From NCBI GenBank assembly GCA_965219845.1, contig CBDCOP010000006.1, positions 294,670 to 358,669 of the forward strand: DNA of 64,000 nucleotides. The letters are read 5' to 3'. Of this stretch, positions 975 to 35,277 are shown piece after piece. Positions within the stretch are counted from its first letter, which is position 1. The number at the start of each line of letters is the position of its first letter. Source of the DNA: Dehalococcoidia bacterium. GTDB lineage: Bacteria; Chloroflexota; Dehalococcoidia; Lucifugimonadales; Australimonadaceae. Below the pieces are notes generated by a model that did no database searches, was not told the origin of the DNA, and saw only the letters and a program-made list of their open reading frames with translations. The translations under genes were made by a program, and so were the position numbers.

Positions 975-1903
975 CCCGCTGTATTATCCGTAAATATCCG
1001 ACAGTGCCTCTTCTCCCCTCCTCAGGGGTGGACTGCAAGCCTAGGCTCAGGTGAGGCGATAGTAGTGGTAGGGGTGGAGGAACTCCTCTGAGTTCTGCTG
1101 GCACTCGGAGATGTCCTCCCTGGAGAAGTCCTCCCTACGGTCGTGTAGCCAGCCCTGACACCCTTGCGCATCGTCCGGTTGAAGCTCTCAATGTACTCCT
1201 GCTCGTTCTTCTTGTAAGGCTGAGCCACCCGATGCCGCTGACAGTAGGTCTGCACCCGGTGCGCGAAGGACTCTTTGAACTCACTGCCGCCGTCCGTTTG
1301 AATCAACTCCACCCAGCCATTGAAGCGCCGCGCCATGGCCTGCTCGAGAAAGGCACACCCATAGGCAGCCGTGAGGGCCGGGGCCACTAGGATGTCCGCC
1401 TCCTTGGTATAGATGGCTATGGCGGTGAAAGCGAACAGGCTGCCGAACATGACAGTGTCCATCTGGACTACCTGGCTTGGGCCGCTGGCGACCGGCACAG
1501 GTTCCCCTCCGACGACGTTTCTTCCACTTGGAGCGGATGACGTACCTCTCCCTGAGAATCTCGTAGATCTTGAGCACGGACAGATGTACCCCGTGCATTG
1601 CTCCAGGAAGTAGGCAATCTTCTGCCCACAGCATCCTGACTCCCGTTTCCTGATGGCCCGCACCCCGCGTTTCACGACAGGGTTGACCTGCCTCTTCAGC
1701 CCCTCCCGCTGGATACCACATAGCCACAAGTGGATGGTCTCCTGGTGTCTTCCTAGGCGCCCGGCGATCCGCGCCTTAGGGACTCCTTGCTGGTAGAGAC
1801 CCCAAGCCAGTGTGATCAACGTGAGGTTCGACATGTCCATGACCATATCCATGGACTGTCCGAGGTCTGTCGGGTTTCTACGAAAACAGTGCACCAACTT
1901 GAC
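975..1903 (-). mobile_element. Degenerate DDE insertion sequence (IS481/IS3 retroviral-integrase superfamily), copy 1 of 2
   Basis: 929-bp block repeated at 8604..9532 with constant offset 7629, no indels and about ten substitutions by eye. Imperfect subterminal inverted repeats: TGTATTATCCGTAAATATCCGACAG (980..1004) and TGTTTTCGTAGAAACCCGACAG (reverse strand of 1867..1888). Confidence 0.85.
980..1852 (-). pseudogene. DDE transposase disrupted by at least four frameshifts
   Basis: The frame of ORF 1022..1963 holds the HTH (VPKARIAGRLGRHQETIHLWL) and DDE contexts (VVQMDTV, IQTDGGSEF, NEQEYIESFNRTMRK). The expected continuations lie in other frames: HGVHLSVLKIYEILRERYVIRSKWKK (ORF 1281..1727 frame), CQGWLHDRREDFSREDISECQQNSEEFLHPYHYYR (third frame, my translation) and PHLSLGLQSTPEE (ORF 874..1104 frame). 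Confidence 0.8.
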
Positions 1904-3391: not shown

Positions 3392-4168
3392 CTAGGGCCG
3401 GGCTCCAGCGGGCTCGGAGCGAGCACCTTTCAGGTGCGCCTCCAAGAACGCAAGCGTCCTAGCCCAAGAGTCCTTCGCAGCCTCCCTGTGGTACGTGCGG
3501 CCGCCCTTTTGGAGAAAGCCGTGGTCTGCTCCAGGGTAGAGGTGGAGCTCGATGTCCTTCTTCAGCTCTCGCATCCTAGACTCGAAGGCGCGGTAGGTAT
3601 CCATCGGGATGCGTTGATCGCTATCGCCAAAGAATCCAATCATTGGGCACGTGATAGCCGCACTATAATCGATGGGATTGTCGGTTTGCAGGAGCTCGTT
3701 CAATGGTGCATCGTTCCGGGGCATGATGCCCCCACCATAATAGATCACGGAGCATGCGATGCCCGATACGCGCGACGCCGCGATGAATGAGGTGCGCCCG
3801 CCCTGGCAGCAGCCCATCACACCGATGCTTTCCTCATCGACGTAGGGCGTGCTCTGGAGATGATCCATTAAGACTTTCAGGTCGTCGACGATCCCGTTGT
3901 CGGTCATGCCAACGCGAAGCGGAGCCGTCTCCTCCATTGTCGTTGCGAACCCATTGCGCGTCGCCCTATGGTACAAGTTCGGTGCGACGGCACAGTAGCC
4001 CTCGTCGGCGAAGGCGCGGGCCAGGTCCTTGATTTGCTGGTCGACCCCCATGGCCGCCTGACAGACGATGACAGTTGGGAACGAACCATCGCCTTCTGGA
4101 CGATAAGTGAAGGTCACCATCTCACCATCAGGCACCTTGAGCTCTACGCTGCCGGAAACCACCGACAC
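3392..4168 (-). CDS. Dienelactone hydrolase family protein
   Basis: ORF 3392..4168(-) with a GTG start after GAGGAGG. DLH-type nucleophile elbow G-C-C-Q-G-G and C-terminal GADHGF. 258 aa. Confidence 0.8.
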   Translation of the reverse strand: MSVVSGSVELKVPDGEMVTFTYRPEGDGSFPTVIVCQAAMGVDQQIKDLARAFADEGYCAVAPNLYHRATRNGFATTMEETAPLRVGMTDNGIVDDLKVLMDHLQSTPYVDEESIGVMGCCQGGRTSFIAASRVSGIACSVIYYGGGIMPRNDAPLNELLQTDNPIDYSAAITCPMIGFFGDSDQRIPMDTYRAFESRMRELKKDIELHLYPGADHGFLQKGGRTYHREAAKDSWARTLAFLEAHLKGARSEPAGARP

Positions 4169-4199: not shown

Positions 4200-5372
4200 C
4201 TACTCGATAGCGGCGATCCCCTCGATTGCCACGAGGCAGTCTGGGTTGGGCAACCCAAGAACGGCGAAGTCTGTGCTTGTTGGAGGCGCCCCGGCGTAGA
4301 AGGCCTCGCGCGCCTTGCGTACGTTGGGGAAGTAGTCTGGTCGGGCCATGTAAGTCGTTGTCCGCACCATGCTGGACCGGCTCCCCCCGGCCGCCCCCAG
4401 AGCAGCATCCAGATTCTGGTACACTTGGTCGAGTTGGGCGTCGATGTCACCCTTGCCTACGACATTGCCGGAGGGGTCCATAGCGGCTTGCACAGCAATA
4501 TAGGCGATGCCGTCAGCCACCACTACCTGGCTAGACCCGTCGACCGGCGTCATCAGCGTCGGAGGGTTGAGGTACCGCTTCTCACCACCAATTACAGCCG
4601 TCGCCTCGACTTCAATCACACCGACGGGGTCAGGACCAACGCTCCACACGCACATCGACGTGCAGGCGGGAGCGTGGTCGCCGTAGAACTCTGCCTGGGC
4701 CGTCACGGCACCCTCATAGTAGCGGAAATGGGTGAAATACGTGAGGTGGCGGACGACATCGTTCTTGGTGGCTCCTGCCGCGTGGAGGACATTCTCCATA
4801 TGCCGGTAGGACATCTCCGCCTGAACCCCAACGTCGCACGGGCCAACCATCTTGCCGTAGTCCCGGGCCATCTGCCCAGTGGTGTACACGACGTTACCCG
4901 CCCTGGCGCCTTGGGGGTGCCCGCTGGTCTGCTGTATCTCCGGTGGGTTGATGGGTTGGAGGGTTGCTGCTGTAGTGCCAACCGAACCGATGGCGTCGAC
5001 TTCCACTAGTACGTTGGAGCCGACATGGGCTGGTATGACTACGGTGGTGCTCGCGGCCGGACGCGCCCCGCTGGATAGCACAGGCAGATACTCTTCGCGC
5101 GCGCGCACAACCGCTCCGAAGTACTCCGGCCGCGTTACATAGATGCTAACCTTGAGGACGCTATGCATCCCGCTACCGACGGACGCAAGGGCGTCCGCCA
5201 CGCCCTTGAAGGCTAGGGACGCTTGGGCATCGGCGTCGCCGATGCCCAAGACCTCACCGCCAGGGCCAAAGGGGCCGTGCCCGGCAACATAAACAGTGTC
5301 GCCCGCGCGCACCACCTCGCTGACCGAACCAAGTGGCCCAATACCCGCAGGGTTGTTTCGCTCGATTGCCAT
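4200..5372 (-). CDS. Single polypeptide with three tandem RidA/YjgF/L-PSP domains
   Basis: 390-aa ORF. Three ~125-130 aa modules each show the RidA pattern, for example VRAGDTVYVAGHG...VLKVSIYV...VEVDAIG; ARAGNVVYTTGQ...VVRHLTYF...IEVEATA; VVADGIAYIAVQ...MVRTTTYM...VAIEGIAAIE. Confidence 0.8.
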   Translation of the reverse strand: MAIERNNPAGIGPLGSVSEVVRAGDTVYVAGHGPFGPGGEVLGIGDADAQASLAFKGVADALASVGSGMHSVLKVSIYVTRPEYFGAVVRAREEYLPVLSSGARPAASTTVVIPAHVGSNVLVEVDAIGSVGTTAATLQPINPPEIQQTSGHPQGARAGNVVYTTGQMARDYGKMVGPCDVGVQAEMSYRHMENVLHAAGATKNDVVRHLTYFTHFRYYEGAVTAQAEFYGDHAPACTSMCVWSVGPDPVGVIEVEATAVIGGEKRYLNPPTLMTPVDGSSQVVVADGIAYIAVQAAMDPSGNVVGKGDIDAQLDQVYQNLDAALGAAGGSRSSMVRTTTYMARPDYFPNVRKAREAFYAGAPPTSTDFAVLGLPNPDCLVAIEGIAAIE

Positions 5373-5412: not shown

Positions 5413-6600
5413 CTAGCCGCCCAGCGTTCGCATTTTCATTTCCAGCTTGCCGAGCCGCCGCGCGCCGTTGGATTCGACAACAATCGTGTTTCCTGCGCGG
5501 TTGCGGCGCTTGCCGTCAGCCGTGACGACTGCTGGCTTGAGGATGAAGCACTGCCCTTGCCTGACGAGCTGACCGTCCATGGTGCCAGGCCGGACCATCG
5601 GGCCGTCCTCGGCGAGGCCCATACCGTGCCCTAAGAATCCGCCCGTGTATTCGGAACTGTACTTCTTGATGGTGTCCTGGGTAATCTGAATCAGATCGTT
5701 CCATGGCACGCCGGGCTTCATCGCCTCCAACACGGCGTTGAAGCAGTCAAGCGAGATATCGAACAGCGTTTGGTACTCCTGAGGAGGCGTGCCGACGCAA
5801 AAGGTCTCGTCTCCTTGGGCCATGTAGCCCATGTATTTGGCGTCGAACTCAGTGAAGATGATGTCGTTGGCCCCGAGGCTCCGGAACGTGGGCATCAGCC
5901 ATGTCTGGTTGGGCTCGGGCTCTGCTACGAAAAGAGCCATCGTGGGCAACTCCCCGCCGCCGCGAACCATGGCGCTTATCATCTGGCCGTACACTTCGTG
6001 CTCGGTCACGCCGGGACGGGCCGATTCAAAAAGTGCCTCACTTGCCTTGTCTGCGAGATCGGCTGCACGCTCCATGAAGACGATCTCCTCCGGACTCTTT
6101 TCCATCCGGACTTCCTGCATCATCTCGGTAACGTCTTCGAAATGCGCCTCCCGCAGCCCCGAGCGAACGTTCTCCCACTCGGTGTGGGAAACCGAGCCCT
6201 CGGGGTCGCGGAGGTGCCCCTGCAGCCCGACGACGCCGATTCTCCCGCTTTCGTGGCCCGCATCCTTGACCGCTTGGACGATCGACTCGCTCCACATACC
6301 AGTCTTGCCCCGAGTGTCCTCCACCCAGTTCTGAGCACGCTTCCACCACTCCCGCCGCTGCGGGTCACGCACGATGGCAACCGGGTCGCCCTCAATCGGG
6401 AACACTGCCGCAACGCCCGTGCAATTGCCTCCAATGCCCGTTAGGTAGCGAATATCAATTTGATAGTTGTCCCAGTCCCCGTTGCTGTGGGGTAATACCA
6501 GACAGTCCAACCCCTGCGCCACCATCTGGGCTCGAACCGCCCCATAGCGGCGATCTCGCTCCTCCTTCGAGAACCTCGGGAAACTGACTTCGTCCAACAT
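5413..6600 (-). CDS. M24-family metallohydrolase (creatinase / Xaa-Pro dipeptidase-like)
   Basis: ORF 5413..7059(-) is over-extended; the ATG at 6600 follows GGAGGGG. Creatinase/prolidase-type N-domain followed by a pita-bread domain (FTEFDAKYMGYMAQGDETF..., GHGMGL). 395 aa. Confidence 0.75.
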   Translation of the reverse strand: MLDEVSFPRFSKEERDRRYGAVRAQMVAQGLDCLVLPHSNGDWDNYQIDIRYLTGIGGNCTGVAAVFPIEGDPVAIVRDPQRREWWKRAQNWVEDTRGKTGMWSESIVQAVKDAGHESGRIGVVGLQGHLRDPEGSVSHTEWENVRSGLREAHFEDVTEMMQEVRMEKSPEEIVFMERAADLADKASEALFESARPGVTEHEVYGQMISAMVRGGGELPTMALFVAEPEPNQTWLMPTFRSLGANDIIFTEFDAKYMGYMAQGDETFCVGTPPQEYQTLFDISLDCFNAVLEAMKPGVPWNDLIQITQDTIKKYSSEYTGGFLGHGMGLAEDGPMVRPGTMDGQLVRQGQCFILKPAVVTADGKRRNRAGNTIVVESNGARRLGKLEMKMRTLGG

Positions 6601-6677: not shown

Positions 6678-7547
6678 TCAACGGATGGTCGATACTCCCA
6701 TGGAGCGGAACATCCTCTCTGTCTGATCGCGAGTATCGCCGATGTACGGGACATGCTCCGGGCGATGCTCGTCGTCTGTGACTGCCGCCGCGGTATACCC
6801 GCCGTCCACGTACCAGACCGCTCCGGTTACGAACTTCGCCTCCTCGGTCGCCAGGAAGATCGCTGGACCGACTAGGTCCTCCTCGCGGCCAACCCTGCCG
6901 AGCGGCAGACGCCGCAACCGCTCCTTGACCTCGGCGAGTTGCCCGCCAGTGTGCGCCTGGCGACCATGTCCCAGACTGTTGACGCGGATGCCGTAGCCGC
7001 CCATGGCGTGGGCCATCGCCCGCATCATTGCATCGCGTGCACCGCATATCGCGCTCCAAGGGACAGCGCCACCCGATCCCAGCCGCGACACGATGGACGT
7101 GAGGTTGATGATGCTTCCGCTACCACGTCGCGCCATCTCTTTGCCAAGGTACTGGCAGGTGAGGAAGTAGCTCTTCACTCCGAGATCGATACCCTGGTCC
7201 CAATCGTCAACGGACAACTCAAATATGACACCGTGGGTGTTACGGCCGCCAGGTGTGTTAACGAGGACGTCCACCCTCCCAAACTTCGCGAGCACGTCCT
7301 CGGTCAACCGGGCAACCTCCGACCCTCTGGTAACGTCGTAGATACCCGACTCGACCCGCTGTCCCACGCGTGCACCTTCGTCCGTGGAGGACGTCTCCGA
7401 CGCGATGATGAGCAGGGGACCCTCGCTTCCTGGGGCCTCTTGCAGGAACAGGTCGGCTCCTTCCCGAGCGTAACCGAGAGCAATAGCTCGCGCCAGAGGG
7501 CCTGATGCTCCGGTGATGACTGCTACTTTGCCTGCGAGCCGTTTCAC
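6678..7547 (-). CDS. SDR-fold protein, atypical (catalytic Tyr and Lys positions replaced)
   Basis: In ORF 6678..7700(-). GTG at 7547 lies 5 nt after GGAGG. Rossmann motif VITGASGPLARAI. Where classical SDRs have YxxxK it reads PWSAICGAR. Confidence 0.7.
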   Translation of the reverse strand: MKRLAGKVAVITGASGPLARAIALGYAREGADLFLQEAPGSEGPLLIIASETSSTDEGARVGQRVESGIYDVTRGSEVARLTEDVLAKFGRVDVLVNTPGGRNTHGVIFELSVDDWDQGIDLGVKSYFLTCQYLGKEMARRGSGSIINLTSIVSRLGSGGAVPWSAICGARDAMMRAMAHAMGGYGIRVNSLGHGRQAHTGGQLAEVKERLRRLPLGRVGREEDLVGPAIFLATEEAKFVTGAVWYVDGGYTAAAVTDDEHRPEHVPYIGDTRDQTERMFRSMGVSTIR

Positions 7548-7605
7548 TGTGACCTCCACTCGTGATCGAGATTCGTACTGGCAACAATCCCGCAGGTTCT
7601 CATCG

Positions 7606-8436
7606 CTACTTGCCCTTATAGCGCTGAGGAGGCCGGACCTCGTCCTTCCCCTCGGGACGGTGCTCCGCATCGGTCGTCGCTGCAACGGTGTAGCCACCAT
7701 CGGCGTAGAGCACCGTCCCGGTCACCCAGTCGGAGTCGGAAGTCGCCAGGAAGATGGCGGGGCCAACCACGTCGTTGTGCAGCCCAAGGCGCCCGAATGG
7801 CAGACGGCGCAGTCGCTCGTGCTGACCGGGGTTCGTCGGTGCCGACGAACCATCGCTACGCGTATGGCCGCGAGCGAGAGCGTTAACGTTCACTCCGTAT
7901 AATCCCAACGCATGCGCCTGCGCCTTGGTCATGCCGTCCACGCCGCCCCTGGCGGCACTCCAAGGCACCGCCCCGCCCGAGCCGAGCACGCCTACGACGG
8001 AAGATAAGTTGATAATCTTGCCACTAGCGTTGCGGGCCATCTCCTTCCCGATGTGTTTCACCGTCAGGAAGTAGCTCTTGAGCCCCACCGCCATGCAGCG
8101 ATCCCACTGGTCCTCGGTGATGTCGAAAAAGACCCCATGTGCGCCGTCCGCTGCCGTGTTCACCAGGATGTCAATCCTTTTGAAGTCGGTCATAGCCTGC
8201 TTCGTCATGTCGACTACAGCGCGTTCGTCGGTAATGTCGAACACACCGGTACTGACCTTGCGTCCGTCGCCACCCGCAGCCTTGACAGTCTTGAGGACAT
8301 CCTTCATCCTTTCATGATTCTTGGGGAAGAACTGAAGGTAGAGGTCGGCTCCCTCCCGAGCGAACCCGCACGCTATGGCCTGCGCGAACTGGCCATCCGC
8401 ATCCGTAATGACGGCCACTTTGCCTTCCAATCTCAT
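7606..8436 (-). CDS. SDR-fold protein, atypical paralog (Tyr->Trp, Lys->Arg; degenerate Gly-rich motif)
   Basis: In ORF 7606..8580(-), ATG at 8436. N-terminal motif VITDADGQFAQAI instead of TGxxxGxG. The active-site stretch IINLSSVVG...PWSAARGGV aligns to NxSS...AYSASKAAV. Confidence 0.7.
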   Translation of the reverse strand: MRLEGKVAVITDADGQFAQAIACGFAREGADLYLQFFPKNHERMKDVLKTVKAAGGDGRKVSTGVFDITDERAVVDMTKQAMTDFKRIDILVNTAADGAHGVFFDITEDQWDRCMAVGLKSYFLTVKHIGKEMARNASGKIINLSSVVGVLGSGGAVPWSAARGGVDGMTKAQAHALGLYGVNVNALARGHTRSDGSSAPTNPGQHERLRRLPFGRLGLHNDVVGPAIFLATSDSDWVTGTVLYADGGYTVAATTDAEHRPEGKDEVRPPQRYKGK

Positions 8437-8603: not shown

Positions 8604-9532
8604 CCCGCTGTATTATCCGTAAATATCCGACAGTGCCTCTTCTCCCCTCCTCAGGGGTGGGCTGCAAGCCTAGGCTCAGGTGAGGCGATGGTAGTGGTAG
8701 GGGTGGAGGAACTCCTCTGAGTTCTGCTGACACTCGGAGATGTCCTCCCTGGAGAGGTCCTCCCTACGGTCGTGTAGCCAGCCCTGATACCCTTGCGCAT
8801 CGTCCGGTTGAAGCTCTCAATGTACTCCTGCTCGTTCTTCTTGTAAGGCTGAGCCACCCGATGCCGCTGACAGTAGGTCTGCACCCGGTGCGCGAAGGAC
8901 TCTTTGAACTCACTGCCGCCGTCCGTTTGAATCAACTCCACCCAGCCATTGAAGCGCCGCGCCATGGCCTGCTCAAGAAAGGCACACCCATAGGCAGCCG
9001 TGAGGGCCGGGGCCACTAGGATGTCCGCCTCCTTGGTATAGATGGCTATGGCGGTGAAAGCGAACAGGCTGCCGAACATGACAGTGTCCATCTGGACTAC
9101 CTGGCTTGGGCCGCTGGCGACCGGCACAGGTTCCCCTCCGACGACGTTTCTTCCACTTGGAGCGGATGACGTACCTCTCCCTGAGAATCTCGTAGATCTT
9201 GGGCACGGACAGATGCACCCCGTGCATTGCTCCAGGAAGTAGGCAATCTTCTGCCCACAGCATCCTGACTCCCGTTTCCTGATGGCCCGCACCCCGCGTT
9301 TCACGACAGGGTTGACCTGCCTCTTCAGCCCCTCCCGCTGGATACCACATAGCCACAAGTGGATGGTCTCCTGGTGTCTTCCTAGGCGCCCGGCGATCCG
9401 CGCCTTAGGGACTCCTTGCTGGTAGAGACCCCAAGCCAATGTAATCAACGTGAGGTTCGACATGTCCATGACCATATCCATGGACTGTCCGAGGTCTGTC
9501 GGGTTTCTACGAAAACAGTGCACCAACTTGAC
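8604..9532 (-). mobile_element. Degenerate DDE insertion sequence, copy 2 of 2
   Basis: Same 929-bp block as 975..1903. Flanked by AAGGCC (8598..8603) and AAAGCC (9533..9538), 5/6 identical, possibly a decayed 6-bp target duplication. Confidence 0.85.
8609..9481 (-). pseudogene. DDE transposase with the same frameshifts as copy 1
   Basis: ORFs 8651..9616(-) and 8973..9356(-) reproduce the frame pattern of copy 1 (same garbage tails, same out-of-frame HGVHLSVPKIYEILRERYVIRSKWKK segment). Confidence 0.8.
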
Positions 9533-11347: not shown

Positions 11348-12649
11348 CTAGGCGAAGGTCATCTCCTGGAACTTCGCCAGTTCCTTCCAGGCCTCCCGCC
11401 AGTCCTCCCCTTTCTCCAGGACGGTGACGTAGCCACCCATGAGCGGGAACCGATTGTCCTCCGGCCTCCGTATGTCGAGGGGAACCTCCCCGGTTTCCAT
11501 CATGTGCCGGATAGCCTGGATTGTGACCTTCCGCGCGAGGGCAACGGCCTTGTCTCCGGGAGCCAAGTGCTCCCGGGTCCGGTCCTCGATGAACCCTTGA
11601 CCCTCCGTCGCCATCGCGTCATGGACGTTGAAGTTGGGTCCGAGGCCGATGAAGCTCCGGGACACCATCTCCTCACGATCCTGGAGGTAACGGTTGCTCC
11701 CATTCCGCCGAAGGGTGTAGTCGGGAAGGACGTCTCGGTCCTGACGGGAATACTCGAGCCGTTCGATGTCCAGAGGCTCGACAATCGTGTGGCCGAAGCT
11801 GAACTTCCAGTGGTGGTGATCGTCGATCGGCACGTGCCAATTGACGCTGTAGCCGTCGCCTCGCGGGCGATTGCCCGAGAAGATGCCAATGCTTGGGTAG
11901 ACGAAGTTGTTCATACGTACGTAGGTCCGGCCATCGTCCGTGATCCGTAGCGCCCACAACCGGACTCCGAAGTCGGCCTCTTCGGCTTCGACCCGTGGCG
12001 CTACGTCGCGGCTCACTAGGGCGTTGGCGGTAGTGCTAGCTCCCGGCACATTCGAGCTCTGGGCGGATCGGCTTTGTGCGTCCTCGCGGATGAACTTGTG
12101 CAAGTAGGAGATATGCGGAGGGTCGATCTCGCCCTCCAGTCCCTGGAGGAAGTTGCACTCCTGGTAGACCTTGTTGCAGGTCCGCTTATCCTCGGACACG
12201 ACCAAGAAGGAGTAGCGCGGGGGCAGGGGAGGCTTGTCCGGCCCCATGTACGTGAGGATAACGCCGCCCATCTCAACGCAAGGGTAGGCGGGGTGCTGGA
12301 TGCGGTCCTTGAAAGTGCTGCTCGCGGACTCCGCTGGCTGGTCGAGGCATTGCCCGTTGATGTCGTACAGCCAGCCGTGGTATACACAGCGGATGCCTCC
12401 GTCCTCGAGACGACCGAAGCTCAGGTCGGCCTGCCGGTGCGAGCAGTGCCGCGCGAGCAGGCCCGGCCGCCCTGCGTCATCCCTGAAGAGCACGAGATCC
12501 TCGCTCAGCAGTCGCACCGGCTTCGGAGGGGAACCGTGTGGGAGCTCCTCGCTCAGGGCGACGGGGTTCCAGTACCTGCGGTGAAACCTGCCAGCCGGCG
12601 TTCCGGGACCGGTCTGGGTTATCAGATCGTTCTCCTCCCGAGTCAGCAT
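11348..12649 (-). CDS. Rieske non-heme iron oxygenase, alpha (catalytic) subunit
   Basis: 433-aa ORF; ATG follows AAGGAGG. Rieske motif CSHRQADLSFG...CVYHGWLYD. The N-terminus LTREENDLITQTGPGTPAGRFHRRYWNPV is typical of the phthalate/VanA-type family. Confidence 0.85.
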   Translation of the reverse strand: MLTREENDLITQTGPGTPAGRFHRRYWNPVALSEELPHGSPPKPVRLLSEDLVLFRDDAGRPGLLARHCSHRQADLSFGRLEDGGIRCVYHGWLYDINGQCLDQPAESASSTFKDRIQHPAYPCVEMGGVILTYMGPDKPPLPPRYSFLVVSEDKRTCNKVYQECNFLQGLEGEIDPPHISYLHKFIREDAQSRSAQSSNVPGASTTANALVSRDVAPRVEAEEADFGVRLWALRITDDGRTYVRMNNFVYPSIGIFSGNRPRGDGYSVNWHVPIDDHHHWKFSFGHTIVEPLDIERLEYSRQDRDVLPDYTLRRNGSNRYLQDREEMVSRSFIGLGPNFNVHDAMATEGQGFIEDRTREHLAPGDKAVALARKVTIQAIRHMMETGEVPLDIRRPEDNRFPLMGGYVTVLEKGEDWREAWKELAKFQEMTFA

Positions 12650-12675: not shown

Positions 12676-13254
12676 CTATCGCACGCCGTCGAGCCCAACC
12701 GCCTCCTCCTTGCGGAGGCCGCCAAGGCGCGCATTGAGCCTGCCACGATTCATCACCGCCAAGCCTACGAGTATCTCATTGTCCAGTGGGGCATCGGGCA
12801 CGGCTACGGTAATCGTGTCGTAGTGCGACCGCACCCAGATGGCGTCCTTGTAGCAGGTGGGGATGTCCATCGACGCGCCGGCACTCGCCCGCTTGGTAAC
12901 AGAGGGCAGCCACGCCTTGGCCCCGCCGATACGCTCGCGGAAAGCGTCGCCGAACACACTAGTCAGGCACGCATTCGCATGCTCCTGCTCACCGGCGAGG
13001 CCAACCACGGCACCCTTCCCGTAGCTCTCTACGTCCGTGGCCAGCGCCTCTACCGCGCGATTGGCGAGAAGGCTGGCGAGCTCACCTGAAGCCTCTGACA
13101 GGCCATCGAGGGACTCAGCGTACGGCTGGAGCGCGTAGGGGTTTCGGATGACCGCGAGGGCAGCGACCTTCCGGAGGGAGTCGCCTTGGTCGGAGCGCCC
13201 TCCCTCTAACCAGATCTCCTCGCTGATGACAACAACTTTCCTAATGTCCAGCAT
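12676..13254 (-). CDS. 'Amino acid synthesis' (PF06684-like) family protein, function unknown
   Basis: 192-aa ORF 26 nt upstream of the oxygenase gene on the same strand. Family call is from memory of its size and sequence pattern (IRKVVV...EGGR...AAAVIRNPY); needs an HMM check. Confidence 0.55.
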   Translation of the reverse strand: MLDIRKVVVISEEIWLEGGRSDQGDSLRKVAALAVIRNPYALQPYAESLDGLSEASGELASLLANRAVEALATDVESYGKGAVVGLAGEQEHANACLTSVFGDAFRERIGGAKAWLPSVTKRASAGASMDIPTCYKDAIWVRSHYDTITVAVPDAPLDNEILVGLAVMNRGRLNARLGGLRKEEAVGLDGVR

Positions 13255-32879: not shown

Positions 32880-34097
32880 ATGCCGGAAGAGAATGTCCGG
32901 GCAGACAGGCTGGGAGGAAGAGCGACGCGGCGCAACATCGGCGGTCGCGACCTGACCGGCGAGGGCGATATCGATTACAAGTACATCTCAGCGGATAACC
33001 ACATAGACCTCGTCTGGTATCCGCACGACGTCATCCAGTCACGCATCGAACCGGAGTTCAGGGAGAAGGCCCCGAAGGTCGTCGAGTCGCATAAGGGCAC
33101 AGCGTGGCAGTGGGAAGACGACATCCACGCGTTCGCCGCCGACGGCAAGGACTGGGCGACTCACGCCAAGCGGTTCCTGCCCATCGAGGTCGAGGAGGGC
33201 CGGCTGCCGCCGTCCGACCCGGAGATACTGCTCCATCACATGGACATCGGCGAGTTTTACGCGGGCGTCTACTACGGGAATACCCGCAAATGGGTGTTCA
33301 AGGACAAGGAGCTGGAGAAGGCGGTCTACCGGGCGTTCAACGACTGGGCGGCGGAGCTGTGCTCCTACTCCCCGGACCGGTTGATCGTGCTGCCGTGGTT
33401 GCATGCAGCCTTCCCCGAGACGTGCGCTGCTGAACTGTACCGGCTCGCCGATCAGGGCATCCGCGCCGTCGAACTCAGCCCGAACGACATGGCGGAGGGC
33501 GTCTGGTCGCCCGTGTGGGAGCCTGTGTGGGCCGCGGCTGAAGAGACGCGCACGGTGATCTGCGGGCACATCGGCGACGCGGCGGGCACACCGTACCCGC
33601 CGAACGAGCACGGGCAATCGCTCGCACACTTCTCGCAGGTGCCGTTCAACCCGGCGGGCAAGCATATCGCCCAGTACGTGTTCAGCGGCATGTTCGACCG
33701 CCACCCGGACCTGCACGTCTCGATCGCGGAGTGCCGCATCGGGTGGCTGCCGTTCCTCTTCCAGTGGATGCAGCGCTGCTACAGCGACCGTGTGCGGGAC
33801 ACCATCCACCATCTGGACCAGGAGCCGCTGCACTACCTCAAGAACAACATGTCCTTCACGTTCGAGGAGGACTACATCGGCGCGAAGATGATTCCCGACC
33901 CCGAGTTCCTGATACGCGACAGCGTCATCTGGGGCTGCGACTACCCGCACGAGCAGGGGCAGACGTGGCCGGACGCGACGCCTGCGATGGAGCGCATGTT
34001 CACCGGCGTCGACCCGGACCTTGTGCACGAGGTCGTCTGGGGACGGTCGCAGCGTATCTTCCGCATCCAGGGACCGAACGGATCGAACGGGGGTTAG
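32880..34097 (+). CDS. Amidohydrolase_2 (ACMSD/TIM-barrel metal-dependent hydrolase or decarboxylase) family protein
   Basis: ATG at 32880, 8 nt after AAGGAG. N-terminal metal motif ISADNHID and C-terminal VIWGCDYPHEQG are typical of PF04909-type enzymes. 405 aa. Confidence 0.75.
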   Translation: MPEENVRADRLGGRATRRNIGGRDLTGEGDIDYKYISADNHIDLVWYPHDVIQSRIEPEFREKAPKVVESHKGTAWQWEDDIHAFAADGKDWATHAKRFLPIEVEEGRLPPSDPEILLHHMDIGEFYAGVYYGNTRKWVFKDKELEKAVYRAFNDWAAELCSYSPDRLIVLPWLHAAFPETCAAELYRLADQGIRAVELSPNDMAEGVWSPVWEPVWAAAEETRTVICGHIGDAAGTPYPPNEHGQSLAHFSQVPFNPAGKHIAQYVFSGMFDRHPDLHVSIAECRIGWLPFLFQWMQRCYSDRVRDTIHHLDQEPLHYLKNNMSFTFEEDYIGAKMIPDPEFLIRDSVIWGCDYPHEQGQTWPDATPAMERMFTGVDPDLVHEVVWGRSQRIFRIQGPNGSNGG

Positions 34098-34158
34098 GCG
34101 CTTGGCCGAGAACCGCCACAAGAAAGAGGTGCTGCTCGGCGACGAGCGCAACCGGCAG

Positions 34159-35277
34159 ATGGCCGCCGTGCTCCGCTACGGCCCCTACGTCTTCCTCTCC
34201 AGCTCCGACGGCTACCGCGACCTAGAGACGCAGCAGATCGACACGGAGTTGGACGGCCAGGCGACCCCGCAGTGCAACAACGCCTACGGGCGTCAGGCGC
34301 GGCGCCTGGAGCAGGTGGGCTACGGCGGCGACGCAGCGGTGTGGATAGAGAACTTCACGTCCGGCCAGTCGTGGCGTCTGGAGCGCATGGCGACTTGGCC
34401 GGACCACTTCGGCGAGGAAGGCCACAAGCTCGCGGTCAGCTTCGGCGCGCAGTGCAAGATGGCGGGGGTCAACATGCTCACCGCCGTCGTGATGGCGATG
34501 ACGCCCGACCTGGAAAGGCAGGTGTTCGTACACCAGCCGCACCGGGGGCGGGCGTCCCGCATCACACGCTGCGGCGACTTCACGTACGTCATCGGCGTAC
34601 GCGGCCGCTCCAACCCGTTCACGGAGGAAGAGGCGATCGAGGAGACGCCGGAGCAGTTCAACACGGAGCTGTTCTACACCTACGAGTGGCTCCGCTCACA
34701 CCTCGAGAAGGGCGGCGGCAGCCTGGACGACCTCGTGCGGACGGACTGCGCGCTGAAGCGCATCGGCGACGTGGGGCCGTACTACGACGAGCTGAAGGAG
34801 CGCTTCGGCGGCAGCGTGCCGTTCGCGGCGTACTCGGTGGGGACGCTCCTCGGCGGGCGCGGCGTCATGGAGATCGGCGGCCTCGCCATCAACCCCGGCG
34901 GGGTGAAGGAGACGGCGTGGCTGGCCGAGGACCCGGACCGGACGCAGGCCGTGCGGGCCAACGGACTCGTGTTCGCATCGAGCGCATCAGGGCTCGCGGA
35001 CGAGCAGACCGGCGCGGTGAAGCAGGAGCTGTACGGCGACCGCACCGGCCAGGCGCGGCAGGCGCTGCGACGACTGGACGCCGCGCTCAACCGGTTCGAC
35101 ACGTCGCTGGAGAACGTGCTGCGGCTCGACGTCTTCTTGGACGACATCTACTTCGAGGACGAGTTCGTTGCGCTCGCGGCGGAGCACTGGGGCGGCGACC
35201 CGCCGACGATGAACGTCGTCGGCGTCGACCTGCACGGCAACGCTGAGGTCGAACTCTCCTGCATCGCGGGTGCGTAG
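34159..35277 (+). CDS. Second single-chain triple-RidA/YjgF-domain protein
   Basis: In ORF 34021..35277. Start is ATG 34159, or TTG 34102 just after the upstream stop. Three RidA-like modules; the third is the clearest (VRANGLVFASSASG...VLRLDVFLDD...VELSCIAGA). Confidence 0.7.
   Translation: MAAVLRYGPYVFLSSSDGYRDLETQQIDTELDGQATPQCNNAYGRQARRLEQVGYGGDAAVWIENFTSGQSWRLERMATWPDHFGEEGHKLAVSFGAQCKMAGVNMLTAVVMAMTPDLERQVFVHQPHRGRASRITRCGDFTYVIGVRGRSNPFTEEEAIEETPEQFNTELFYTYEWLRSHLEKGGGSLDDLVRTDCALKRIGDVGPYYDELKERFGGSVPFAAYSVGTLLGGRGVMEIGGLAINPGGVKETAWLAEDPDRTQAVRANGLVFASSASGLADEQTGAVKQELYGDRTGQARQALRRLDAALNRFDTSLENVLRLDVFLDDIYFEDEFVALAAEHWGGDPPTMNVVGVDLHGNAEVELSCIAGA

What the first reader, a model, noticed from the sequence alone, without database searches (positions are those of the whole stretch)
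4200..5372. Single-chain triple-RidA protein (covalent pseudo-trimer?)
The 390-aa product consists of three consecutive, clearly diverged RidA/YjgF/L-PSP modules (~1-130, ~131-262, ~263-390). Characterised RidA-family proteins are homotrimers of one ~125-aa domain with active sites at subunit interfaces. A three-domain fusion would form a single-chain trimer with three non-equivalent interface sites. It lies between an M24 creatinase-like hydrolase and a dienelactone hydrolase, which suggests handling of a reactive enamine/imine intermediate. To my knowledge this architecture is not among the characterised members.
Basis: partly seen in the sequence, partly recalled or inferred. Interest (0 to 1): 0.55.

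Follow-up and report, generated by a model that had tools for sequence, protein, structure and literature searches.

The report
Three-domain RidA-fold fusion protein
The gene really encodes three RidA-like domains fused into one chain that is predicted to fold like a RidA trimer, but this "3x-RidA" architecture was named in 2015 and is common in databases, and this copy lacks the arginine that RidA deaminases need, so it is an uncharacterised member of a known kind.

Summary
Observation confirmed. Window 4200-5372 (-) encodes a 390-aa protein with three PF01042 (RidA/YjgF/L-PSP) domains, at residues 1-132, 136-262 and 263-390, that are 23-30% identical to each other. AlphaFold2 gives one compact globule (pLDDT 91.6, pTM 0.91). 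Its best PDB fold matches over all three domains are the chorismatases FkbO/Hyg5, which are characterised single-chain pseudo-trimers of this fold.

The novelty claim fails. Niehaus et al. 2015 named this architecture "3x-RidA" and already proposed a covalent trimer. A profile search finds 613 clusters (50% identity) at E<=1e-30, and 147 of the 159 proteins retrieved from the databases have three domains. No 3x-RidA has a solved structure in the PDB or a biochemical study in the searchable literature.

The canonical enamine/imine-deaminase reading is weakened. The essential Arg105 is replaced in all three domains (S108, C237, S366). Only 2, 2 and 1 of the 7 RidA pocket-signature residues survive.

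The conserved gene partners in orthologues are a Rieske/LigXa_C oxygenase and the M24 hydrolase, not the dienelactone hydrolase.

Best reading: an asymmetric Rid-fold pseudo-trimer serving an unknown Chloroflexota catabolic pathway. Interest is low to moderate.

The parts
4200..5372 (-). CDS of the 390-aa 3x-Rid protein (stop codon at 4200-4202)
   Evidence: ORF list. PF01042 with 3 stretches, E=1.4e-47. Full-length orthologues. AF2 model pLDDT 91.6, pTM 0.91.
4977..5372 (-). Rid domain 1 (residues 1-132). Pocket-signature equivalents are V17, G31, V89, S108 (for Arg105), G118 and E124.
   Evidence: Own HMM domain E=1.5e-42. Residue mapping to E. coli RidA. S108, T110 and R92 are invariant in the clade.
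4587..4967 (-). Rid domain 2 (residues 136-262). Equivalents are H152, G166, V223, C237 (for Arg105), D248 and E254.
   Evidence: Own HMM domain E=3.1e-45. Mapping. H152, E254 and E256 are invariant and G166 is kept in 10 of 11 clade members; the Arg105 position is variable (C/T/S/A).
4203..4586 (-). Rid domain 3 (residues 263-390). Equivalents are S280, V294 (for Gly31), R352, S366 (for Arg105), N376 and A382 (for Glu120).
   Evidence: Own HMM domain E=1e-46. Mapping. S366 and E384 are invariant. The window copy has lost both Gly31 and Glu120, which most orthologues keep.
5413..6600 (-). M24/creatinase-like hydrolase, 40 nt upstream on the same strand; a conserved partner
   Evidence: PF00557 plus PF01321. 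The nearest NCBIfam models (ectoine hydrolase, PepQ) score far below their cut-offs. A 68% identical orthologue lies next to the Rieske-3xRid pair in L083, and an M24 gene is also present in the P0006 contig.
3392..4168 (-). Dienelactone-hydrolase-family protein, 31 nt downstream on the same strand, with a strong RBS
   Evidence: PF01738 E=7.8e-46. Intergenic sequence. Not seen near the orthologues.
6678..8436 (-). Two tandem paralogous SDR genes (6678-7547 and 7606-8436), upstream on the same strand
   Evidence: PF13561/PF00106. They are 50% identical to each other. Gene calls in L001.
11348..12649 (-). Rieske/LigXa_C-type oxygenase; it sits immediately upstream of the 3x-Rid gene in orthologous contigs, but here it is about 6 kb away beyond an IS-like repeat
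   Evidence: L001 gene call PF00355 plus PF19301. A 62% identical orthologue lies directly upstream of the 3xRid gene in L083, and the same arrangement holds for P0006 and P0007.
8604..9532 (.). IS-like 929-bp direct repeat (second copy at 975-1903). The pair brackets the VOC-DLH-3xRid-M24-SDR-SDR block.
   Evidence: blastn 98.9% identity over 929 bp with no gaps. An rve integrase fragment is called in both copies in L001.

Best explanation
The gene encodes a single-chain pseudo-trimer of the Rid (YjgF/YER057c/UK114) fold, that is, a member of the already named '3x-RidA' architecture.

Architecture: three beta-alpha-beta-alpha-beta-beta modules joined by short linkers of 4-8 residues pack around a pseudo-threefold axis. 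This reproduces the RidA homotrimer in one polypeptide and creates three different inter-domain clefts.

Function (inferred): this protein is not a canonical 2-aminoacrylate or alpha-imino-acid deaminase. The Arg that clamps the substrate carboxylate is replaced in all three domains (S108, C237, S366), and Tyr17 is also gone. The Glu120-type acid with its Gly31 partner survives in domains 1 and 2 (E124/G31 and E254/G166) and is lost in domain 3 (A382/V294). The best conserved pocket elements in the clade are H152, G166, E254 and E256 of domain 2, together with an invariant Ser (S108 or S366) at the old Arg position of a neighbouring domain.

I therefore infer an asymmetric protein with one principal site (at most two), as in the chorismatases. 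It would act as an accessory hydrolase or tautomerase, or as a binder, for a labile intermediate lacking the usual alpha-carboxylate. That intermediate would come from the conserved partners, a Rieske/LigXa_C oxygenase and an M24 creatinase/ectoine-hydrolase-like enzyme, within a Chloroflexota (Dehalococcoidia-like) catabolic island for an unidentified, probably nitrogen-containing, compound.

Shown: the architecture, the predicted fold, the residue losses and the synteny. Inferred: the number of live sites, the chemistry and the substrate.
For: Three PF01042 stretches and domain limits. The AF2 model has pLDDT 91.6 and pTM 0.91 with three repeated beta-alpha-beta-alpha-beta-beta units. Foldseek top hits are the chorismatases 4bps/5a3k/5ag3, aligned over 360-370 columns (TMq 0.53-0.56, TMt 0.61-0.64), followed by single RidA chains at TMt 0.83-0.95. 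[quoted passage not shown]

Residue mapping: Arg105 becomes S/C/S, Tyr17 becomes V/H/S and Glu120 becomes E/E/A. Only 2, 2 and 1 of the 7 TdcF pocket-signature residues are kept, against 4.4-5.3 in Arg-containing 3x proteins (signature from PMC1884159). Arg105 is reported as necessary for deaminase activity (PMC4433059; PMC5619798).

Synteny: Rieske/LigXa_C lies directly upstream in three independent orthologous contigs. The M24 orthologue is 68% identical, the Rieske orthologue 62% and the Rid orthologue 52%. The nearest genomic relatives are Dehalococcoidia MAGs.
Against: There is no experimental data for any 3x-RidA. Model coordinates could not be inspected, so which domain pairs form which cleft is unknown, as is whether another basic residue (R92, R352/R355, K265/R266) reaches a pocket. 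About 10% of RidA-subfamily proteins have Ser at the Arg position and their activity is untested, so loss of deaminase activity is inferred, not shown. In a more distant 3x relative (P0009) an FAD amino-acid-oxidase-type gene sits directly upstream, which fits an imine-handling role. Neighbouring enzymes match no characterised equivalog, so the pathway is unknown. In this window the block is bracketed by IS-like repeats and separated from the Rieske gene.
Confidence: 0.6

Rival explanations
1. Canonical RidA in covalent-trimer form. The protein would be a general enamine/imine deaminase that quenches 2-aminoacrylate or alpha-imino acids released by neighbouring enzymes, using up to three interface sites.
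For: The whole-protein TIGR00004 ('Rid family detoxifying hydrolase') score of 124.7 exceeds the 106.25 cut-off. Sources annotate orthologues as enamine deaminase RidA. The distant 3x relative P0009 lies next to a DAO-type FAD oxidase, a typical imine generator. Glu120 is kept in two domains. A Ser-for-Arg minority exists within the RidA subfamily.
Against: Arg105 is absent from all three domains, as is Tyr17. Arg105-to-Ala nearly abolishes activity in plant and Salmonella RidA, and Arg105 is used as the predictor of deaminase activity. Each domain alone scores only 39-53 bits against TIGR00004. Only 1-2 of 7 signature residues are kept per domain. No PLP-dependent dehydratase or amino-acid oxidase is among the annotated neighbours in the window.
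Confidence: 0.15
2. Non-catalytic Rid-fold module. The pseudo-trimer would bind a small molecule (as a sensor or sequestering protein) or act as a scaffold or chaperone, having lost enzymatic function.
For: Most canonical pocket residues are lost in all three clefts. The Rid protein is the least conserved of the three syntenic partners (52% against 62-68%). Other three-repeat derivatives of this fold, such as the FBXO22 FIST domain, have no obvious ligand pocket (PMC11185555).
Against: Pocket-position residues are conserved across the clade down to 40% identity: H152, E254, E256, S108 and S366 are invariant and G166 is kept in 10 of 11 members. The gene sits tightly, operon-like, among enzymes with no regulator domain fused or adjacent.
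Confidence: 0.15
3. Chorismatase-type enzyme (FkbO/Hyg5/XanB2) acting on chorismate or a similar enolpyruvyl compound.
For: The best PDB fold matches are chorismatases, aligned across the whole chain. A profile of the family weakly hits chorismatase chains 5a3k and 5ag3 in domain 3 (E about 2e-4).
Against: Only 15-16% identity and TM about 0.55-0.64 with rmsd about 5 A. In NCBIfam, even at E<=10, only Rid-family models and one marginal, unrelated match (an aminoglycoside phosphotransferase model, E 0.029) appear. All three domains are still ordinary PF01042, unlike chorismatases. No shikimate, polyketide or xanthomonadin genes were seen among the annotated neighbours.
Confidence: 0.03
4. Endoribonuclease or translation inhibitor (the L-PSP activity that gave PF01042 its name).
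For: The Pfam family name, and the reported RNase activity of rat L-PSP (cited in PMC4433059).
Against: The context is purely catabolic-enzyme and transporter genes, with no RNA-related neighbours. No Rfam or tRNA features occur in the window.
Confidence: 0.02

Closest known systems
3x-RidA (Niehaus et al. 2015, BMC Genomics 16:382; example EF_0115 of Enterococcus faecalis V583)
   Same: Three Rid/PF01042 domains are fused in tandem in one polypeptide of about 390 aa, presumed to be a covalently linked trimer unit. The window protein has exactly this architecture.
   Different: Niehaus et al. describe 3x-RidA as a subset of the RidA subfamily, which is defined by the catalytic Arg. The window protein has S/C/S at that position and keeps few signature residues. 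Among 147 three-domain proteins from the databases, 18 have Arg in all three domains, 114 have Arg in none and 15 have Arg in one or two. Its three domains are old and differentiated (27% mutual identity), whereas some 3x proteins have up to 94.5% identical domains. I did not examine EF_0115 itself.
Chorismatases FkbO / Hyg5 / XanB2 (PDB 4bps, 5a3k, 5ag3)
   Same: They are single-chain, three-repeat pseudo-threefold proteins of the YjgF fold, and they are the best PDB fold matches over all three domains (PMC11185555). From my own recollection of Juneja et al. 2014 (not held in the library), they use a single asymmetric active site.
   Different: Identity is 15-16%. Chorismatases are about 60 residues shorter, and profile searches detect only their C-terminal repeat by sequence. 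The window protein matches no non-Rid NCBIfam model apart from one marginal, unrelated hit and lies in a different gene context.
Homotrimeric RidA/TdcF/YabJ/UK114 imine deaminases
   Same: Each domain superposes on these structures at TMt 0.83-0.95 and rmsd 1.2-2.6 A, with 27-29% identity to E. coli RidA. The pockets lie at subunit or domain interfaces.
   Different: The window protein is covalently fused and its three sites are non-identical. The Arg105 carboxylate clamp, Tyr17, Asn88 and Pro114 are absent (signature from PMC1884159).
Arg-less Rid subfamilies Rid4-Rid7
   Same: They lack the critical Arg and are predicted not to hydrolyse imines, presumably serving other functions (PMC4433059; PMC5619798).
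   Different: Those are single-domain proteins defined by CDD footprints, which I could not test. The domains here score best against RidA-type models (TIGR00004, RutC).

Membership tests
Rid / YjgF-YER057c-UK114 superfamily (Pfam PF01042) | Significant match to the PF01042 profile above the gathering score | tested here: met
   161 bits against a cut-off of 27.3, in three stretches. Each third is significant alone against TIGR00004 and against my own HMM.
Rid / YjgF-YER057c-UK114 superfamily (Pfam PF01042) | Chorismate-mutase-like beta-alpha-beta-alpha-beta-beta fold assembled as a trimer with pockets at the interfaces | tested here: met
   In silico only. The AF2 secondary structure repeats three times with pTM 0.91. 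Single RidA chains match at TMt 0.83-0.95, and the whole chain aligns with pseudo-trimeric chorismatases.
3x-RidA architecture (Niehaus 2015) | Three Rid domains fused in tandem in one polypeptide | tested here: met
   definition in PMC4433059.
3x-RidA architecture (Niehaus 2015) | Domains belong to the RidA subfamily proper (CDD cd00448 footprint) | not testable with these tools
   No CDD search was available. As a proxy, TIGR00004 scores 124.7 bits for the whole protein (passes the 106.25 cut-off), but each domain alone scores 39-53 bits.
RidA-type enamine/imine deaminase (functional class: RidA, Rid1-3) | Arginine equivalent to RidA Arg105 that binds the substrate carboxylate | tested here: not met
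   S108, C237 and S366 occupy that position. Across the clade it is Ser in D1 and D3 and variable in D2. Criterion from PMC4433059 and PMC5619798.
RidA-type enamine/imine deaminase (functional class: RidA, Rid1-3) | Seven conserved pocket residues (Tyr17, Gly31, Asn56, Asn88, Arg105, Pro114, Glu120; Burman 2007) | tested here: not met
   Kept: 2 of 7 in D1, 2 of 7 in D2 and 1 of 7 in D3. Signature list from PMC1884159.
RidA-type enamine/imine deaminase (functional class: RidA, Rid1-3) | Measured acceleration of imine or 2-aminoacrylate hydrolysis | not testable with these tools
   This needs the LOX/semicarbazide or CdsH/LDH coupled assays.
Chorismatase (FkbO/Hyg5/XanB2) | Single-chain three-repeat YjgF-like pseudo-trimer fold | tested here: met
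   Foldseek E about 1e-13, 360-370 aligned columns, TMt 0.61-0.64.
Chorismatase (FkbO/Hyg5/XanB2) | Sequence-level family membership | tested here: not met
   15-16% identity. In NCBIfam at E<=10 only Rid-family models and one marginal, unrelated model (E 0.029) are hit. The profile hit to 5a3k/5ag3 is limited to D3 at E about 2e-4. Catalytic residues were not compared because no chorismatase sequence was at hand.
Chorismatase (FkbO/Hyg5/XanB2) | Context of shikimate-derived secondary metabolism | tested here: not met
   The neighbours are M24, DLH, SDR, VOC, Rieske, amidohydrolase and ABC transport genes.

The most novel reading that the evidence does not exclude
This Chloroflexota clade of anciently triplicated, Arg-less 3x-Rid proteins could be a new enzyme with a single asymmetric active site built around D2 (H152, E254, E256) and an invariant Ser from a neighbouring domain. 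It would catalyse an undescribed step on the product of a Rieske/LigXa_C oxygenase in a pathway with an M24 creatinase-like hydrolase. That would make it an evolutionary intermediate between symmetric RidA trimers and fully asymmetric chorismatase-type pseudo-trimers. The same window carries a second, more diverged pseudo-trimer (34102-35277), which would then represent a later stage of the same trajectory.
Probability: 0.25. Interest if true: 0.55.

Novelty: new member of a known kind. Interest (0 to 1): 0.3.

Why it matters
If the asymmetric-site reading is right, proteins like this give a tractable view of how a symmetric homotrimeric enzyme becomes a single-chain enzyme with specialised sites after gene triplication. 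The end point of that route, the chorismatases, is already known. No 3x-RidA has been purified, assayed or crystallised as far as the PDB and the searchable literature show, although hundreds of sequence clusters exist. A structure plus an activity for any one of them would therefore fill a real annotation gap. Current database labels such as "2-iminobutanoate/2-iminopropanoate deaminase" are probably wrong for the Arg-less majority. As a genomic observation, however, the finding is ordinary: the architecture is known, named and common.

Tried and rejected
- PDB sequence and profile searches for a solved 3x-RidA chain found only single-domain chains of 165 aa or less, plus weak D3-only hits to chorismatases.
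- Literature searches for '3x-RidA', 'three RidA', 'Rid domains' and similar terms found only Niehaus 2015. Juneja 2014, the FkbO structure paper, is not held in the library.
- The genome-contig scan with the family alignment used a single peptide pattern. It returned mostly single-domain Rid genes: only 5 of the 79 new loci are 3x, all from Dehalococcoidia. It is therefore not a usable taxonomic survey of the architecture.
- A tblastn survey of window proteins against those loci showed no conserved neighbourhood among distant relatives, apart from frequent SDR genes.
- NCBIfam naming of the neighbours gave no equivalog-level match, so the pathway could not be identified.
- AF2 coordinates are not exposed to the sandbox. 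I could not measure inter-domain contacts, assign cleft partners, or check whether R92, R352, R355 or K265/R266 reach a pocket.
- A chorismatase identity was considered and rejected on sequence and context.
- An assembly or fusion artefact was rejected, because full-length orthologues occur on independent contigs.
- tRNA and Rfam scans of the window found nothing.

Full report

Yes. The minus-strand ORF 4200..5372 encodes 390 aa. Pfam PF01042 (Ribonuc_L-PSP) matches at E=1.4e-47 in three separate stretches. NCBIfam TIGR00004 and RutC also match in three stretches, and each third scanned alone is significant at 1e-10 to 3e-14. A single-domain HMM that I built from the family places the domains at residues 1-132, 136-262 and 263-390, each at E about 1e-42 to 1e-46. 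The three domains are 23-30% identical to one another and 27-29% identical to E. coli RidA.

An M24/Creatinase_N hydrolase (5413-6600) lies 40 nt upstream and a dienelactone-hydrolase-family protein (3392-4168) lies 31 nt downstream. Both are on the same strand and are preceded by two SDR genes.

The gene is not an artefact. A 99% identical copy and 45-53% identical full-length orthologues of 385-388 aa occur on independent contigs.

**2. Does it fold as a covalent trimer?**

AlphaFold2 with an 11-sequence family alignment gives mean pLDDT 91.6 and pTM 0.91. The beta-alpha-beta-alpha-beta-beta unit is repeated three times, with only 4-8 residues between the last strand of one unit and the first strand of the next.

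Foldseek against the PDB puts the chorismatases 4bps (FkbO), 5a3k and 5ag3 at the top. They align over 360-370 columns, which covers all three domains in order (TMq 0.53-0.56, TMt 0.61-0.64). Single-domain RidA/YabJ/UK114 chains follow, superposing on one domain at TMt 0.83-0.95.

[quoted passage not shown] My recollection of Juneja et al. 2014 agrees, but that paper is not held in the library.

The closed trimer-like packing is therefore supported computationally. I could not inspect coordinates.

**3. Is the architecture new?**

No. Niehaus et al. [quoted passage not shown] The architecture is also common:
- A profile search of 1.84 billion cluster representatives found 613 proteins at E<=1e-30.
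- The best 150 are nearly all 375-420 aa.
- 147 of the 159 proteins retrieved from the databases have three domains by my HMM; one has six.

It has arisen repeatedly. Identity between the domains of a single protein ranges from 19% to 94.5%. Only about 10 of 146 representatives share domain-by-domain register with the window protein.

What is missing is characterisation. No solved chain in the PDB is a sequence-recognisable 3x-RidA. The term and its variants appear in only one paper of the searchable library.

**4. What kind of Rid protein is this one?**

I mapped each domain onto E. coli RidA.

| RidA residue | Domain 1 | Domain 2 | Domain 3 |
|---|---|---|---|
| Arg105 | S108 | C237 | S366 |
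| Tyr17 | V17 | H152 | S280 |
| Glu120 | E124 | E254 | A382 |
| Gly31 | G31 | G166 | V294 |

- **Signature residues.** Seven residues line the TdcF pocket: Tyr17, Gly31, Asn56, Asn88, Arg105, Pro114 and Glu120 (PMC1884159). The three domains keep 2, 2 and 1 of them. Arg-containing 3x proteins keep 4.4-5.3.
- **Why Arg105 matters.** It makes the bidentate salt bridge to the substrate carboxylate. Its replacement by Ala nearly abolishes activity. It is used as the predictor of Rid deaminase activity.
- **Conservation in the orthologous clade.** The clade comprises 11 sequences down to 40% identity. The Ser at the Arg position is invariant in D1 and D3 and variable in D2. H152, E254 and E256 of D2 are invariant, and G166 is kept in 10 of the 11.
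- **Pocket geometry.** In TdcF, Glu120 bonds across the interface to residue 107 of the neighbouring subunit. Each cleft therefore combines the 'Arg face' of one domain with the 'Glu/Gly face' of another. The best conserved cleft must then pair D2's Glu face with an invariant Ser from D1 or D3.
- **Domain 3.** In the window copy, D3's Glu face has lost both Glu120 and its sterically coupled Gly31.

This argues for an asymmetric protein with one or two live sites and against a general alpha-imino-acid deaminase.

Among the 147 three-domain proteins from the databases, 18 have Arg in all three domains, 15 have Arg in one or two, and 114 have Arg in none. This set is biased towards relatives of the query.

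**5. Context**

The nearest genomic relatives are Dehalococcoidia (Chloroflexota) MAGs. A neighbouring gene's closest cluster is annotated 'Chloroflexota bacterium'.

The synteny in orthologous contigs is as follows:
- In three independent contigs the 3x-Rid gene lies directly downstream of a Rieske/LigXa_C oxygenase: P0004/L083, P0006 and P0007.
- In L083 the Rieske orthologue is 62% identical to window 11348-12649.
- Also in L083, an M24 orthologue 68% identical to window 5413-6600 is divergently adjacent.
- The P0006 contig carries PF06684/AA_synth, Amidohydro_1, SDR, VOC and solute-binding-protein genes, as the window does.

In the window the Rieske gene is about 6 kb away, beyond one of two 929-bp, 98.9% identical IS-like direct repeats. 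These repeats bracket the VOC-DLH-3xRid-M24-SDR-SDR block. The dienelactone hydrolase is not seen in the other contexts.

More distant 3x relatives sit next to a GMC oxidoreductase (P0008) or a DAO-type FAD oxidase (P0009).

None of the neighbours reaches an NCBIfam equivalog cut-off. The M24 enzyme is nearest to ectoine hydrolase and PepQ, at 84 bits against cut-offs of 575 or more. The substrate of the island therefore remains unknown. The mix of C-N hydrolases and oxygenases suggests a nitrogen-containing compound; this is inference.

**6. Mechanism, with its rivals**

- **Most likely (0.6):** a monomeric pseudo-trimer whose clefts have diverged. It would use a Glu/His-containing site, without the Arg clamp, to hydrolyse, tautomerise or bind a labile intermediate produced by the Rieske oxygenase/M24 pathway.
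- **Rival 1 (0.15):** a canonical RidA deaminase. This is weakened by the residue losses. It is not excluded, because Ser-for-Arg RidAs are untested and one distant relative is next to an amino-acid-oxidase-type gene.
- **Rival 2 (0.15):** a non-catalytic binder or scaffold.
- **Rival 3 (0.03):** a chorismatase. This is rejected on sequence and context.
- **Rival 4 (0.02):** an endoribonuclease.

**7. Verdict**

The architecture, however, is a known, named and abundant kind, and characterised pseudo-trimers of the same fold exist.

This copy is an uncharacterised, Arg-less, differentiated member from a Chloroflexota catabolic island. The database label 'imine deaminase' is probably not right for it.

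Novelty: new member of a known kind. Interest: 0.3.

Noticed in passing
window 34102-35277 (+) (ORF listed as 34021-35277): A second single-chain Rid-fold pseudo-trimer lies in the same window. It is a 391-aa protein in which Pfam sees only one C-terminal PF01042 domain; my HMM sees a weak second and a very weak first repeat. The AF2 model (pLDDT 93.6, pTM 0.93) shows three beta-alpha-beta-alpha-beta-beta repeats, and chorismatases are again its best PDB fold matches. It belongs to a large, well-conserved family, where named annotated as Chloroflexota (127 clusters), and is flanked by Amidohydro_2, TPP-enzyme and amidase genes. It looks like a more diverged stage of the same triplicated fold.
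   Followed up: partly
window 975-1903 and 8604-9532: Two 929-bp direct repeats (98.9% identical, no gaps) carry an rve-type integrase fragment. They bracket the 6.7-kb VOC-DLH-3xRid-M24-SDR-SDR block like a composite-transposon remnant, which may explain why the Rieske oxygenase is separated from the 3x-Rid gene here.
   Followed up: partly
window 12676-13254 (-): A PF06684 (DUF1185/AA_synth) gene is conserved in the same island in the P0006 contig. [quoted passage not shown]
   Followed up: no
window 6678-7547 and 7606-8436 (-): Two tandem SDR genes are paralogues, 50% identical to each other. Neither reaches any NCBIfam equivalog cut-off.
   Followed up: no
proteins P0014, P0102 and P0011 (representative library, not in the window): An 803-aa protein has six Rid domains (P0014). 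Some 3x proteins have internal domains 61-94.5% identical to each other (P0102 at 94.5%, P0011 at 61%). This shows recent, independent triplications or concerted evolution of this architecture.
   Followed up: partly
window 4203-4586 (-), residues V294 and A382 of domain 3: The window copy has lost both Gly31 (to Val) and Glu120 (to Ala) in domain 3. Burman et al. describe these two positions as sterically coupled. Ten of the 11 clade members keep the Gly and nine keep the Glu (P0007 has Ala there), so this may be relaxation of one cleft in this lineage.
   Followed up: partly
window 1-64000: No tRNA or tmRNA genes and no Rfam matches at gathering thresholds were found anywhere in the 64-kb window.
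   Followed up: yes
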